A DNA stretch of 64,000 bases from assembly GCF_003334785.1 (NCBI RefSeq), contig NZ_QOWV01000001.1, one strand, 5' to 3'. The stretch's first letter is position 1, and each line of letters opens with the position of its first letter. Source of the stretch: Escherichia coli (GTDB lineage: Bacteria > Pseudomonadota > Gammaproteobacteria > Enterobacterales > Enterobacteriaceae). This document shows, in pieces, positions 16,119 through 20,073 of this stretch. The position numbers and the translations under genes were made by a program. Below the pieces are notes generated by a model. The model had not been told where the DNA came from, did no database searches, and saw only the letters and a program-made list of their open reading frames with translations.

Positions 16119-16972
16119 GCACCATCCTGAAATGGGCGGGAAATAAAACCGCCATTATGCCAGAACTGAAAAAATACCTTCCTGCTGGCCCGCGACTGGT
16201 TGAACCTTTCGCGGGTTCCTGTGCTGTGATGATGGAAACGGATTATCCCAGCTATCTGGTTGCGGATATTAATCCTGATTTAATCAACCTCTATAAAAAG
16301 GTTGCCGCTGATTGTGAATCGTTTATATCTCGCGCCAGAGTTTTATTTGAGATCGCAAACAGGGAGGTGGCTTATTACAACATAAGGCAGGAGTTTAACT
16401 GCTCAACTGAAATTACTGATTTCATGAAAGCGGTATATTTCCTGTATCTCAATCGTCACGGTTACCGTGGTTTATGTCGCTATAACAAGAGCGGGCATTT
16501 CAACATTCCCTACGGTAATTATAAAAATCCGTATTTCCCTGAAAAAGAACTTCGTACATTTGCAGAAAAAGCCCAGCGAGCAACGTTTATCTGCGCCAGC
16601 TTTGATGAAACGCTGGCGATGTTGAAGGCGGGAGATGTGGTGTATTGCGATCCGCCATATGACGGTACGTTTTCCGGCTATCACACTGATGGTTTCACTG
16701 AAGATGACCAGTATCACCTGGCATCCGTTCTTGAACATCGGTCATCAGAAGGACATCCGGTCATTGTTTCTAACAGTGACACATCCCTGATCCGTTCGCT
16801 GTATCGCAATTTTACTCACCACTATATCAAGGTAAAACGCAGCATCGGTGTGGCAGCTGGCGAGGGTAAATCAGCAACAGAAATCATTGCTGTTTCCGGG
16901 CCGCGCTGCTGGATGGGATTTGATTATTCGCGTGGCGTGGATAGTTCTGCCGTGTACGGAGTACGTGCATGA
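16115..16972 (+). CDS. dam: Phage DNA adenine methyltransferase (Dam family)
   Basis: 285 aa from ATG 16115; motif [10 protein letters not shown] and catalytic DPPY ([10 protein letters not shown]); start overlaps the TraR stop (ATGA). Confidence 0.85.
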
Positions 16973-19900
16973 GTCATGCCGATATGAACAACTGCTGCGG
17001 CTTTAACGAGGCTGCCGCAGCATTCTCATGGAACAGCCCGAAAAAGGCCATTAACCCTTATCTGGACCCGGCGGAAGTTGCGCCGGTTTCTACGCTTTCA
17101 AACCTGATCACTCTGTACGCTGCCGATAACGAGCAGGAACAGTTGCGCCGCGAGGCACTGAGTGATCAGGTCTGGGAGCGTTATTTCTTTAATGAATCAC
17201 GTGATCCTGTCCAGCGCGAAATGGAGCAGGATAAGCTCATTAGCCGGGCAAAGCTGGCGCATGAGCAGCAGCGTTTTAATTCAGACATGGTCATTCTGGC
17301 GGACGTCAACGCCCAGCCTTCCCATATCAGCAAGCCGCTGATGCAACGTATTGAATACTTCAGCAGCCTGGGCAGGCCAAAGGCTTATTCCCGCTATTTA
17401 CGTGAGACGATTAAGCCATGTCTGGAACGACTGGAGCATGTACGCGACAGTCAGCTATCTGCATCTTTTCGCTTTATGGCAAGCCATGAAGGGCTGGACG
17501 GCCTGCTGATCCTGCCTGAAATGAGTCAGGATCAGGTGAAACGCCTGTCCACCCTGGTAGCTGCGCATATGAGTATGTGCCTTGATGCAGCTTGTGGTGA
17601 TTTGTATGCCACCGATGACGTTAAGCCAGAAGAAATCCGCAAGACATGGGAAAAGGTGGCAGCGGAAACCCTGCGTCTGGATGTCATCCCACCTGCGTTT
17701 GAGCAACTCCGTCGGAAAAGAAACCGCCGTAAACCCGTGCCCTATGAACTCATTCCGGGTTCGCTGGCGCGTATGTTGTGCGCCGACTGGTGGTATCGGA
17801 AATTATGGAAGATGCGTTGCGAATGGCGGGAAGAGCAGTTGCGCGCAGTTTGCCTGGTCAGCAAAAAAGCATCTCCTTATGTCAGCTATGAAGCCGTGAT
17901 GCATAAACGTGAGCAGCGCCGTAAGTCGCTGGAGTTTTTCCGTTCTCATGAACTGGTGAACGAAGACGGCGACACGCTGGACATGGAGGATGTGGTAAAC
18001 GCCAGCAGCAGCAACCCTGCGCATCGCCGCAATGAGATGATGGCCTGTGTTAAAGGTCTGGAGCTTATCGCGGAAATGCGCGGTGACTGCGCCGTTTTCT
18101 ACACTATCACCTGTCCGTCGCGTTTCCATTCCACGCTAAATAACGGCAGACCAAACCCGACCTGGACAAACGCGACGGTAAGACAAAGCAGCGATTATCT
18201 GGTCGGCATGTTTGCTGCATTTCGTAAGGCGATGCACAAAGCCGGGTTGCGCTGGTATGGCGTGCGGGTGACGAAGGATGCGATGGGAACCATCCAGCGT
18301 GTACTGGAGAAGGTGAACGCACTGCCGCAGGACAAGCGTCTGTCTGCCATGACCATGTTGTTTGGTAAAGAGTTTGGCGATGACGCGGCGAAACTGGCAA
18401 ACAACCTGCCGGAACTACAGCGCCAGCTAAAACTGACAGCGGGCAATGATGCGCTCGGTTCGATGCAGAAAGAATCCGACATCAACAAAGACTCACTTTC
18501 TGCTCAGTGGTTGCTGGTCAAAACCGGAGCGCAGAACACCTTCAGCAGCCTGGGCGAAACGCTGCGCCAGCCGCTGATGGATATTCTGTACACGGTGAAA
18601 AGCGTCACGGGGGCGTTGCGCCGCTGGGTGGAAGCTAACCCGGAACTGACAGGCACACTGATGAAAGTAGTGGCTGTTGTGGCTGCGGTTACCGTAGGCC
18701 TCGGCACCTTAGCGGTGGCGCTGGCTGCAGTGCTGGGGCCGCTGGCAGTGATCCGTCTGGGATTCTCTGTGCTGGGTATCAAAACGTTACCTTCCGTTAC
18801 GGCAGCAGTAACCCGAACCAGCAGCGCGTTGTCCTGGCTGGCTGGCGCACCACTGGCACTGCTGCGACGCGGGCTTGCTTCATCGGGCAACGCCGCAGGT
18901 TTACTTACTGCGCCGTTGTCGTCTTTGCGCCGCACGGCATTACTGACGGGAAATGTCCTGAAAACTGTAGCAGGTGCGCCGGTTGCACTTTTGCGGTCTG
19001 GATTATCCGGTTTACGTGCTGTTGCTGTGATGTTTATGAATCCTCTGGCGGTACTGCGCGGTGGACTGGCCGCCGCAGGCACGGTGCTGCGAGTACTGGC
19101 ATCTGGTCCACTGGCGATGCTGCGCGTTGCCCTGTATGCCGTATCTGGTCTGTTAGGTGCTCTGCTCAGTCCGATAGGTCTTGTGGTTACTGCACTGGCG
19201 GGCGTGGCGCTGGTTGTCTGGAAATACTGGCAACCCATCACCGCATTTCTTGGTGGCGTGGTGGAAGGATTCAAAGCGGCGGCAGGTCCCGTCAGTGAAG
19301 CATTCGAACCGCTTAAGCCCGTGTTCCAGTGGATTGGCGACAAAGTACAGGCGCTGTGGGGCTGGTTTACTGATCTGCTGACGCCCGTTAAGTCGACCTC
19401 TGCCGAACTGCAGAGTGCAGCGGCAATGGGGCGACGATTCGGGGAGGCACTGGCGGAAGGGCTAAATATGGTCATGCATCCGCTGGACTCCCTGAAATCC
19501 GGCGTTTCCTGGTTGCTGGAGAAGCTCGGCATTGTCAGTAAAGAGGCCGCAAAGGCAAAACTTCCGGAAAGCGTGACGCGTCAGCAACCTGCGACGGTGA
19601 ATGCAGACGGTAAAGTGATGATGCCATCGGGTGGTTTTCCATCATGGGGATATGGCTTTGCGGGGATGTATGACAGCGGCGGGTATATCCCGCGCGGGCA
19701 GTTTGGCATCGTCGGTGAAAACGGGCCGGAAATTGTTAACGGCCCGGCAAATGTGACCAGCCGGAGAAATACAGCTGCACTGGCTGCCGTTGTTGCCGGA
19801 ATGATGGGAGTTGCTGCCGCGCCAGCAGAGCTTCCACCGTTGCACCCTTTGGCACTTCCCGCGAAAGGTGGAGAAGCAATTGTGAGTCGCGCAGCCACTG

Positions 19901-20073
19901 TGCCGCCCGTTTACAGGATTGAGGCACCGACGCAGATCATCATCCAGACGCAGCCAGGACAAAGTGCGCAGGATATTGCGCGGGAGGTGGCCCGCCAGCT
20001 TGATGAACGTGAACGCAGGCTGAAGGCAAAGGCCAGGAGTAACTACAGCGATCAGGGGGGATACGACGCATGA
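16969..20073 (+). pseudogene. In-frame fusion of the replication initiator (gpA-like) N-terminal portion to the tape-measure (gpT-like) C-terminal portion; internal deletion scar
   Basis: 1034-aa ORF. The N-terminal ~470 aa follows dam as gene A does in 186/P2-like phages. The C-terminal ~550 aa is Ala/Gly/Leu-rich with recurring PLA(L/V)LRxGL segments typical of tape-measure proteins and is followed by U and D. Junction is approximate, about 18.2-18.5 kb. Confidence 0.65.

What the first reader, a model, noticed from the sequence alone, without database searches (positions are those of the whole stretch)
16969..20073. Single 1034-aa ORF fuses the replication-initiator N-terminus to the tape-measure C-terminus: an in-frame deletion scar
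The ORF starts at the gene A position (directly after dam, overlapping ATGA) and ends overlapping the gpU-like start. Its C-terminal half is Ala/Gly/Leu-rich with recurring PLA(L/V)LRxGL units typical of tape-measure proteins, while its N-terminal half has none of that composition. In intact P2/186 prophages, gene A and gene T are separated by the late operons. The simplest explanation is a single deletion that joined the two genes in frame, so the chimera may still be translated from the early operon.
Basis: partly seen in the sequence, partly recalled or inferred. Interest (0 to 1): 0.5.

Follow-up and report, generated by a model that had tools for sequence, protein, structure and literature searches.

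The report
Deletion-fused gene in decayed P2-like prophage
The 1034-aa ORF is what a single ~22-24 kb deletion left inside a P2/186-type prophage of E. coli: the first 434 codons of the replication gene A joined in frame to the last 600 codons of the tail tape-measure gene T, which is ordinary prophage decay and most likely a dead fusion.

Summary
The observation and the main interpretation hold. ORF 16969-20073 (+) is real. Against intact prophages at the same chromosomal site (E. coli D7, G5), window 15249-18270 is collinear with the early operon up to codon 434 of gene A. Window 18269 onward is collinear with gene T from about codon 426, then U, D and ogr. Between 22.4 and 24.2 kb is missing, and the ends share only 2-4 bp (TG, possibly TGAC).

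The break falls immediately before gpA's HUH metal-binding motif and its YxxxY catalytic tyrosines. The replication-origin homolog inside gene A is also gone, as are tum, cos, all head and lysis genes, most tail genes and the first ~425 residues of T.

The identical protein is in GenBank/UniRef, labelled "phage tail tape measure protein", and on 13 contigs in the same context, so this is not an assembly artefact. None of 5,426 complete E. coli genomes and none of 50,697 phage records has the junction.

The 11.6 kb remnant lies at the 3' end of rybB. Its CI repressor is intact and its Tum antirepressor is deleted, so the early operon carrying the fusion should normally be silent. This is a recent, lineage-restricted deletion scar of low interest. 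A PD-lambda-1/SNIPE defence gene is retained in the remnant.

The parts
10452..10465 (.). attL core (AACAAAAAACCCAT), left boundary of the prophage remnant
   Evidence: The 14-bp exact direct repeat recurs at 22039. Collinearity with the empty K-12 site ends at 10465.
10540..11592 (-). Phage integrase, 350 aa, full length
   Evidence: Pfam Phage_integrase. Same length as in the intact prophages of G5 and AR_0085.
11675..13351 (-). PD-lambda-1/SNIPE defence protein (DUF4041 + T5orf172), 558 aa, retained cargo
   Evidence: PADLOC PD-Lambda-1, E=6.6e-120. Pfam SNIPE and T5orf172. Function as described in bioRxiv 10.1101/2025.11.03.685801.
13372..13968 (-). CI immunity repressor, 198 aa, intact
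   Evidence: Pfam Phage_CI_repr and Phage_CI_C. Window 9000-16500 is 100% identical to prophages in G5, AR_0085 and PSJ-16.
13962..13990 (+). pR-like early promoter (TTGACA-17-TAGTAT)
   Evidence: Consensus scan, 10 of 12 matches. It sits where pR lies in phage 186. Function is inferred.
14064..16972 (+). Early operon genes: apl-like (14064-14285), cII (14318-14827), fil (14835-15131), DUF5347 (15249-15590), DUF2732 (15658-15891), TraR/DksA (15891-16118), dam (16115-16972)
   Evidence: Called genes and Pfam hits in the identical locus L005, mapped to the window. All have the same lengths as in intact relatives.
16969..18270 (+). A' segment: codons 1-434 of replication gene A, ending ...GLRWYGVRV, just before the HUH motif
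   Evidence: 98.1% DNA identity with D7 over 15249-18270, and 3 mismatches with G5 inside the A part. Alignment with D7, 186 and P2 gpA. Pfam Phage_GPA stops at model position 244 of 321.
18269..18272 (+). Deletion junction: TG (18269-18270) is shared by both parental sides. It would be TGAC (to 18272) if the parent carried the Thr allele seen in strain S1-CAM-01-A.
   Evidence: Three-way comparison of the window with the A side and T side of D7. Megablast overlaps at query positions 300-301 and 300-303. L010 sequence.
18271..20073 (+). 'T segment: about the last 600 codons of tape-measure gene T (TKDAMGTIQ... to the stop), with hydrophobic stretches at residues 560-605 and 714-754 and six PLAxLRxxL-type units
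   Evidence: 99.4% identity with D7 from 18269 on. Tape-measure PHROG hits. P2 gpT match. Hydropathy and motifs.
20070..20555 (+). gpU tail protein, 161 aa
   Evidence: phrog_76, E=1.7e-83. Pfam Phage_P2_GpU.
20552..21652 (+). gpD tail protein ('late control D'), 366 aa
   Evidence: phrog_52, E=9.9e-176. Pfam Phage_GPD.
21743..21961 (+). ogr/B late-gene activator, 72 aa, with a promoter-like site at 21678-21705
   Evidence: Pfam Ogr_Delta. Promoter scan.
22039..22052 (.). attR core, overlapping the 3' end of the sRNA gene rybB (22039-22117, minus strand)
   Evidence: Direct repeat. Rfam RybB, 105 bits. K-12 empty-site comparison.

Best explanation
A P2/186-type (Peduoviridae) prophage integrated at the 3' end of rybB, between rcdA and ybjL. 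It then lost its central 22-24 kb by one illegitimate recombination event at a 2-4 bp microhomology. The deletion runs from codon 434 of replication gene A to about codon 425 of tape-measure gene T and happens to keep the reading frame, producing a 1034-aa A'-'T hybrid ORF. The hybrid lacks gpA's HUH motif and catalytic tyrosines. It also lacks the N-terminal ~425 residues of T. The element has no ori, no cos, and no head, lysis, sheath, tube or baseplate genes. The hybrid therefore cannot initiate replication or measure a tail, and it is best read as a recent, neutral fusion pseudogene. It sits in the CI-repressed early operon. CI is intact and the Tum antirepressor is deleted, so it is probably transcribed little or not at all. 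Shown here: the anatomy, the breakpoint, the loss of the motifs and ori, and the presence of the junction in independent assemblies. Inferred: that it was a single event, that the operon is silent, and that the protein has no function.
For: - **Two collinear blocks.** Against intact same-site prophages the window splits at 18269/18270, with 24,187 bp (D7) or about 22.4 kb (G5) missing.
- **No extended homology.** The A-side and T-side flanks share only TG, or TGAC with an alternative allele.
- **Catalytic motifs lost.** Alignment with D7, 186 and P2 gpA puts the break directly before the conserved AEPHHDGTxHWH and YIAKYISKNIDG motifs. After the break the chimera follows T sequence.
- **Pfam domain truncated.** Phage_GPA stops at model position 244 of 321, and no tape-measure Pfam domain is detected.
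- **Origin lost.** The P2 and 186 records annotate ori inside the 3' part of gene A. Its homolog in D7 lies at nt ~2006-2043 of A, beyond the break at nt 1302. The window has no credible copy.
- **Independent assemblies.** The exact protein is in GenBank/UniRef (n=9) and on 13 contigs with the same neighbours. The window is base-for-base identical to GCA_012211965.1 and to a Logan assembly of SRR3825895.
- **Rare junction.** It is absent from 5,426 complete E. coli genomes, although 157 of them carry this prophage type at this site. It is also absent from 50,697 phage records.
- **Recent event.** All other retained genes are full length.
- **Decay of this kind recurs.** Independent internal deletions occur in related prophages of strains MS20649, MB19 and AHB21.
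Against: No transcription or protein data exist here, so silence and lack of function are inferred. The frame is preserved and translational coupling to dam and to U is intact, so a protein would be made if the operon were derepressed. Post-deletion divergence is essentially nil, so selection on the fusion cannot be tested either way. The left block is closest to G5-type prophages and the right block to other strains, so the true parent is not in hand. Two or more successive deletions cannot be excluded.
Confidence: 0.9

Rival explanations
1. The junction is an assembly or sequencing artefact: a chimeric contig that joins two parts of an intact prophage.
For: None of 5,426 complete E. coli genomes carries the junction.
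Against: The exact 1034-aa product has several GenBank accessions, a UniRef entry with n=9, and 13 contigs from different sources, including an NCBI assembly and an independent Logan assembly of SRR3825895. All are in the same context, on contigs up to 764 kb. The flanks continue collinearly into chromosomal genes on both sides.
Confidence: 0.01
2. The fusion protein has been co-opted by the host. For example, the catalytically dead gpA N-terminal fragment, or the membrane-inserting C-terminal part of T, might interfere with superinfecting P2-like phages. Alternatively it might interact with the neighbouring SNIPE nuclease, which is reported to associate with tape-measure proteins.
For: The frame and the translational coupling are preserved. 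The T part keeps strongly hydrophobic segments. The remnant also keeps a PD-lambda-1/SNIPE gene. [quoted passage not shown] Defective P2-like elements that retain defence genes have been noted.
Against: An in-frame outcome is expected by chance in one of three deletions. The junction is confined to what looks like one clone and is absent from all complete genomes, so there is no sign of spread or recurrence. The gene lies in a CI-repressed operon with Tum deleted. SNIPE is equally present in intact relatives that have a normal T, and it did not target the myoviruses of the BASEL collection. No PADLOC model matches the chimera.
Confidence: 0.04
3. The hybrid arose from recombination between two different co-resident P2-like prophages, or from several successive deletions, rather than from one deletion inside a single prophage.
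For: The left block is 99.92% identical to G5 while the right block is only 98.3% identical to G5, yet the right block is 99.4-99.9% identical to other strains. Strain AHB21 shows that multi-step decay happens at this very site.
Against: P2-like prophages are mosaic, so different best matches for the two ends do not require two parents. Both att ends belong to one insertion at rybB, in the normal gene order and orientation. No extra sequence lies at the joint. One event is the more parsimonious reading.
Confidence: 0.08

Closest known systems
Intact P2/186-type prophages at the rybB/ybjL site of E. coli (strains D7, NZ_CP010150.1, and G5, NZ_CM127462.1)
   Same: Same insertion site and same gene order. 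DNA identity is 98-99.9% over int, cI, the early operon, A codons 1-434, and T codons ~426 to the end, U, D and ogr.
   Different: They have separate full-length A (805 aa) and T (1025 aa) genes. Between these lie the tum/DinI operon, a defence cargo island, cos and all the head, lysis, baseplate, fibre, sheath, tube and E/E' genes. The window lacks all of that 22-24 kb.
Phage 186 (NC_001317) gene A and gene G, and phage P2 (NC_001895) genes A and T
   Same: The N-terminal part aligns with 186 and P2 gpA up to the conserved G(V/I/L)RV that precedes the HUH motif (26-28% identity). The C-terminal part aligns with P2 gpT residues 586-736 (46% identity). The regulatory layout (cI, pR, apl, cII, fil ... 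A) follows phage 186.
   Different: The reference proteins carry the HUH and YxxxY motifs, and ori lies inside gene A. The chimera has none of these, and it has only the C-terminal ~58% of T.
Other decayed P2-like prophages in E. coli (MS20649 and MB19 at ssrA; AHB21 at rybB/ybjL)
   Same: Internal deletions leave the left early/immunity end and the right T-U-D-ogr end. In MB19 a truncated A (330 aa) abuts a frameshifted T. In AHB21 only the last ~300 codons of T are left.
   Different: The breakpoints differ and the events are independent. In those strains the joint is out of frame or lies between genes, so no long hybrid ORF results.

Membership tests
P2/186 gpA rolling-circle replication initiator (Pfam PF05840, HUH endonuclease) | Homologous N-terminal region | tested here: met
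   phrog_91, E=3e-139, residues 2-434. Pfam Phage_GPA, residues 188-435. 92% identity to D7 gpA over the aligned segment.
P2/186 gpA rolling-circle replication initiator (Pfam PF05840, HUH endonuclease) | HUH metal-binding motif (EPHHDGTxHWH) | tested here: not met
   The break falls immediately before the motif, and the chimera continues with T sequence TKDAMGTIQ. The Pfam match stops at model position 244 of 321.
P2/186 gpA rolling-circle replication initiator (Pfam PF05840, HUH endonuclease) | Catalytic tyrosine pair (YIAKYISK, YxxxY) | tested here: not met
   The motif is conserved in D7, 186 and P2 gpA and absent from the chimera. Its assignment as the active site rests on my knowledge of the P2 A protein literature.
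P2/186 gpA rolling-circle replication initiator (Pfam PF05840, HUH endonuclease) | Cognate origin (nick site) within the 3' part of the gene | tested here: not met
   ori is annotated at P2 29892 and 186 28576. Its homolog lies at nt ~2006-2043 of D7 gene A, beyond the break at nt 1302. The window has no credible match.
Phage tail tape-measure protein (P2 gpT type) | Homology to the C-terminal part of T, followed by the U and D genes | tested here: met
   99.4% DNA identity to D7 T from about codon 426. phrog_28, E=3.9e-83. U and D lie directly downstream.
Phage tail tape-measure protein (P2 gpT type) | Full-length protein, including the N-terminal ~425 residues that contribute to tail-length determination | tested here: not met
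   T residues 1 to ~425 are deleted. Pfam finds no tape-measure domain in the chimera.
Phage tail tape-measure protein (P2 gpT type) | Context of the tail assembly chaperone genes E/E', tube and sheath upstream | tested here: not met
   These genes are present in D7 and G5 and absent from the window, where dam and the A' segment lie upstream.
Defective (cryptic) P2-like prophage | Integrase plus flanking att direct repeats at a chromosomal site that is empty in other strains | tested here: met
   int at 10540-11592. 14-bp cores at 10452 and 22039. The K-12 empty site is collinear on both sides.
Defective (cryptic) P2-like prophage | Loss of genes essential for replication, packaging and virion assembly | tested here: met
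   The remnant is 11.6 kb, against about 34-36 kb (my estimate: remnant plus deleted segment) in relatives. Missing are the 3' part of A with ori, cos, and the portal, terminase, capsid, lysis, baseplate, fibre, sheath and tube genes.

The most novel reading that the evidence does not exclude
The in-frame A'-'T hybrid is made at a low level and acts as a host-beneficial factor. It might be a dominant-negative gpA fragment or a membrane-inserted tape-measure fragment that blocks superinfecting P2-like phages, or it might modulate the adjacent SNIPE nuclease. That would explain why the remnant is kept.
Probability: 0.03. Interest if true: 0.55.

Novelty: new member of a known kind. Interest (0 to 1): 0.12.

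Why it matters
It matters little biologically. It is a clean, base-resolved example of prophage decay by illegitimate recombination, and it shows how a deletion can create a long, plausible-looking hybrid ORF. The practical point concerns annotation. Public databases label this protein simply "phage tail tape measure protein" although 42% of it is a truncated replication initiator. Such chimeras can mislead domain-architecture surveys, tape-measure length statistics and prophage-completeness callers. The remnant still carries an intact integrase, CI immunity, dam, ogr and a PD-lambda-1/SNIPE defence gene. It therefore fits the picture of defective P2-like elements persisting as carriers of immunity and defence genes.

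Tried and rejected
- **Junction-peptide search.** A protein search with a 100-aa peptide centred on the junction returned only short gpA or gpT fragments. It found no further chimeras and did not even recover the known cluster, so it says nothing about other junction variants.
- **The 850-aa cluster representative.** RCR45195.1 is identical to residues 185-1034 of the chimera. Its contig is not on record, so I could not tell whether its shorter N-terminus reflects an upstream mutation or a different start call.
- **Selection test.** Substitutions were compared with D7 and G5. The differences are mostly synonymous, but they reflect allelic variation that predates the deletion, and carriers of the junction are identical to each other. 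dN/dS after the event cannot be estimated.
- **AR_0085 as parental reference.** Its left end is 100% identical to the window, but it was dropped because its late region is rearranged and interrupted by other phage DNA.
- **Assembly artefact.** Considered and rejected.
- **Recombination between repeats in A and T.** Considered and rejected, because only 2-4 bp are shared at the joint.
- **Collection scans.** Metagenome and genome-collection scans for the junction were not run, because the independent assemblies already settle that it is real.
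Full report
**1. The observation**

The window has an ATG-initiated ORF at 16969-20073 (+) of 1034 codons. Its start overlaps the stop of the upstream dam gene as ATGA. Its stop overlaps the start of the gpU gene in the same way.

The two halves differ in composition. A+G+L+V is 27.6% in residues 1-434 and 47.5% in residues 435-1034, and GC is 53.5% against 58.1%. Six P-[LV]-[AS]-x-[LI]-R-x-x-[LFA] units lie between residues 594 and 725.

**2. What the two halves are**

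- Residues 2-434 match PHROG 91, "nicking at origin of replication" (E=3e-139). Residues 188-435 match Pfam Phage_GPA, but only model positions 1-244 of 321.
- The remainder matches tape-measure PHROGs (phrog_28, E=3.9e-83; phrog_5690, E=1.7e-145). It also matches P2 gpT residues 586-736 at 46% identity, E=1e-39.
- In 5,426 complete E. coli genomes the two halves hit genes annotated "replication endonuclease" and "phage tail tape measure protein". They are always in separate places, and no record holds the junction.
- No record among 50,697 phage genomes covers 80% or more of the ORF in one place.

**3. The breakpoint**

E. coli D7 carries an intact P2/186-type prophage at the same chromosomal site, between rcdA and ybjL.

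- Window 15249-18270 aligns to the D7 early region through codon 434 of gene A (98.1% identity).
- Window 18269-26000 aligns from about codon 426 of gene T through U, D, ogr and ybjL (99.4% identity).
- 24,187 bp is missing between the two blocks. Against strain G5 the same two blocks appear, and my estimate of the gap is about 22.4 kb. The size differs because the cargo islands differ.
- The joint reads ...GGCGTGCGGG**TG**ACGAAGG.... The A side reads GGGTG|GCTGAG and the T side AGATG|ACGAAG, so only TG is shared. With the A allele of strain S1-CAM-01-A (GGGTGACTGAG) the shared stretch would be TGAC.
- The flanks show no longer homology. This is illegitimate recombination, not homologous or site-specific recombination.

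**4. What was lost**

Alignment with gpA of D7, 186 and P2 shows that the break lies directly after the conserved G(V/I/L)RV. It lies directly before AEPHHDGT(V/P)HWH, the HUH motif. The YIAKYISKNIDG motif with the two tyrosines lies further downstream and is also deleted. That these motifs form the catalytic centre of the P2 A protein rests on established knowledge of HUH rolling-circle initiators.

The P2 and 186 records place ori inside the 3' part of gene A. Its homolog in D7 lies at nt ~2006-2043 of the gene, beyond the break at nt 1302. The window has no credible copy.

Also gone, relative to D7 and G5:
- the small ORF and the DinI-like/Tum gene downstream of A;
- the defence cargo island;
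- cos, portal, terminase and capsid genes;
- the lysis, baseplate, fibre, sheath, tube and E/E' genes;
- the first ~425 residues of T.

**5. What remains**

The remnant is 11.6 kb, bounded by a 14-bp direct repeat (AACAAAAAACCCAT) at 10452 and 22039. The right copy overlaps the 3' end of the sRNA gene rybB. The empty site in K-12 is collinear with both flanks at 99.9% or better.

Retained, each at the same length as in intact relatives, are int, a 558-aa PD-lambda-1/SNIPE protein, cI, an apl-like gene, cII, fil, DUF5347, DUF2732, TraR/DksA, dam, the hybrid, U, D and ogr. The absence of any other damage, together with near-identity to intact relatives (8 mismatches in 10.6 kb against G5), indicates a recent event.

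**6. Real or artefact**

The exact 1034-aa protein is in GenBank under several accessions and in UniRef (n=9), named "phage tail tape measure protein". It lies on 13 contigs with the same neighbours. The window is identical over 23.1 kb to GCA_012211965.1 and over 13.9 kb to an independent Logan assembly of SRR3825895.

The junction is therefore real and inherited in a lineage. It is also rare. Of the complete genomes, 157 carry this prophage type at this site, and none has the junction.

**7. How it most likely works, or does not**

The hybrid cannot nick ori: it has no HUH motif, no catalytic tyrosines and no ori. It cannot serve as a tape measure: the N-terminal 41% is missing and there are no chaperones, tube, sheath or baseplate.

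It sits in the rightward early operon. A pR-like promoter lies at 13962-13990, where pR lies in phage 186. In 186, pR is repressed by CI, and derepression needs the LexA-controlled antirepressor Tum (annotations). Here CI is intact and tum is deleted. I therefore infer that the operon is normally silent and no longer SOS-inducible from its own genes.

If the operon were derepressed, the intact ATGA coupling would allow translation of a ~113 kDa protein with strongly hydrophobic segments at residues 560-605 and 714-754. An in-frame outcome is expected in one of three random deletions, so the frame is not evidence of function.

**8. Context**

Independent internal deletions occur in related prophages:
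- MS20649, from tum to the start of T, at ssrA;
- MB19, a truncated A abutting a frameshifted T;
- AHB21, two deletions at this same rybB site that leave only the last ~300 codons of T.

Decay that removes the middle and keeps both ends is thus common in this phage group. A recent survey of P2-like elements reports pseudogenes in 98% of them. It also reports defence genes in defective elements, and a minor defence hotspot between the integrase and gpA, which is where the SNIPE gene sits here.

**9. Rivals**

- Assembly artefact: rejected (section 6).
- Co-option of the hybrid as an exclusion or decoy protein, possibly linked to SNIPE. SNIPE is reported to associate with siphovirus tape-measure proteins. 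This cannot be excluded, but nothing supports it. SNIPE co-occurs with a normal T in intact relatives. It did not target the BASEL myoviruses. The chimera matches no defence model. The junction has not spread.
- Multi-step or two-parent origin: possible, because the two blocks have different best matches. It is less parsimonious than one deletion.

**10. Verdict**

The finding is an ordinary, recent deletion scar in a defective P2/186-type prophage. It is a new instance of a well-known kind, and its main practical relevance is to annotation. Interest is low.

Noticed in passing
window 11675-13351 (-): A 558-aa protein lies between int and cI. It matches PADLOC PD-Lambda-1 (E=6.6e-120) and Pfam SNIPE/T5orf172. 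This is the SNIPE membrane nuclease reported to cut phage DNA during injection and to associate with tape-measure proteins. It is intact in the remnant and may be one reason the remnant persists.
   Followed up: partly
window 10452-10465 and 22039-22117: The prophage is integrated at the 3' end of the sRNA gene rybB. The 14-bp att core AACAAAAAACCCAT overlaps the last bases of rybB (its terminator T-run on the minus strand), so attR reconstitutes the sRNA end. Two tandem 18-bp repeats (AAAACAATAAGTTAGGTT) next to attL, around 10484-10519, look like Int arm-type sites.
   Followed up: partly
L001 (MS20649), L002 (MB19), L011 (AHB21): Three other E. coli strains carry independently decayed relatives of this prophage. 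Each keeps the left early/immunity end and the right T-U-D-ogr end, with different breakpoints. AHB21 is at the same rybB site and carries a KAP NTPase gene and two CI-like genes instead of SNIPE.
   Followed up: partly
window 59816-59843 (+): A single 28-nt match to Rfam CRISPR-DR4 (50 bits) lies between the 763-aa ORF (57312-59603) and a tRNA gene (59950-60034, minus strand). It is one isolated palindromic copy (GTTCACTGCCGTACAGGCAGCTTAGAAA), not an array, so it is probably an orphan repeat or a terminator-like hairpin.
   Followed up: no
window 18504-19532 (-): A 342-aa ORF runs antisense inside the T part of the hybrid. It is most likely a by-product of the GC-rich, Ala/Gly/Leu-rich coding sequence on the other strand.
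   Followed up: no
window 33793-33835 and 34815-34895 (+): Rfam matches to ES036 (CssrF) and naRNA4 (CssrE), which are REP-derived nucleoid-associated RNAs, lie in the chromosomal part of the window. They are unrelated to the prophage.
   Followed up: no
window 5476-10465 and 22027-27000: The chromosomal flanks are 99.9-99.98% identical to E. coli K-12 MG1655, so the host looks like a close K-12 relative. K-12 has the empty rybB site.
   Followed up: yes
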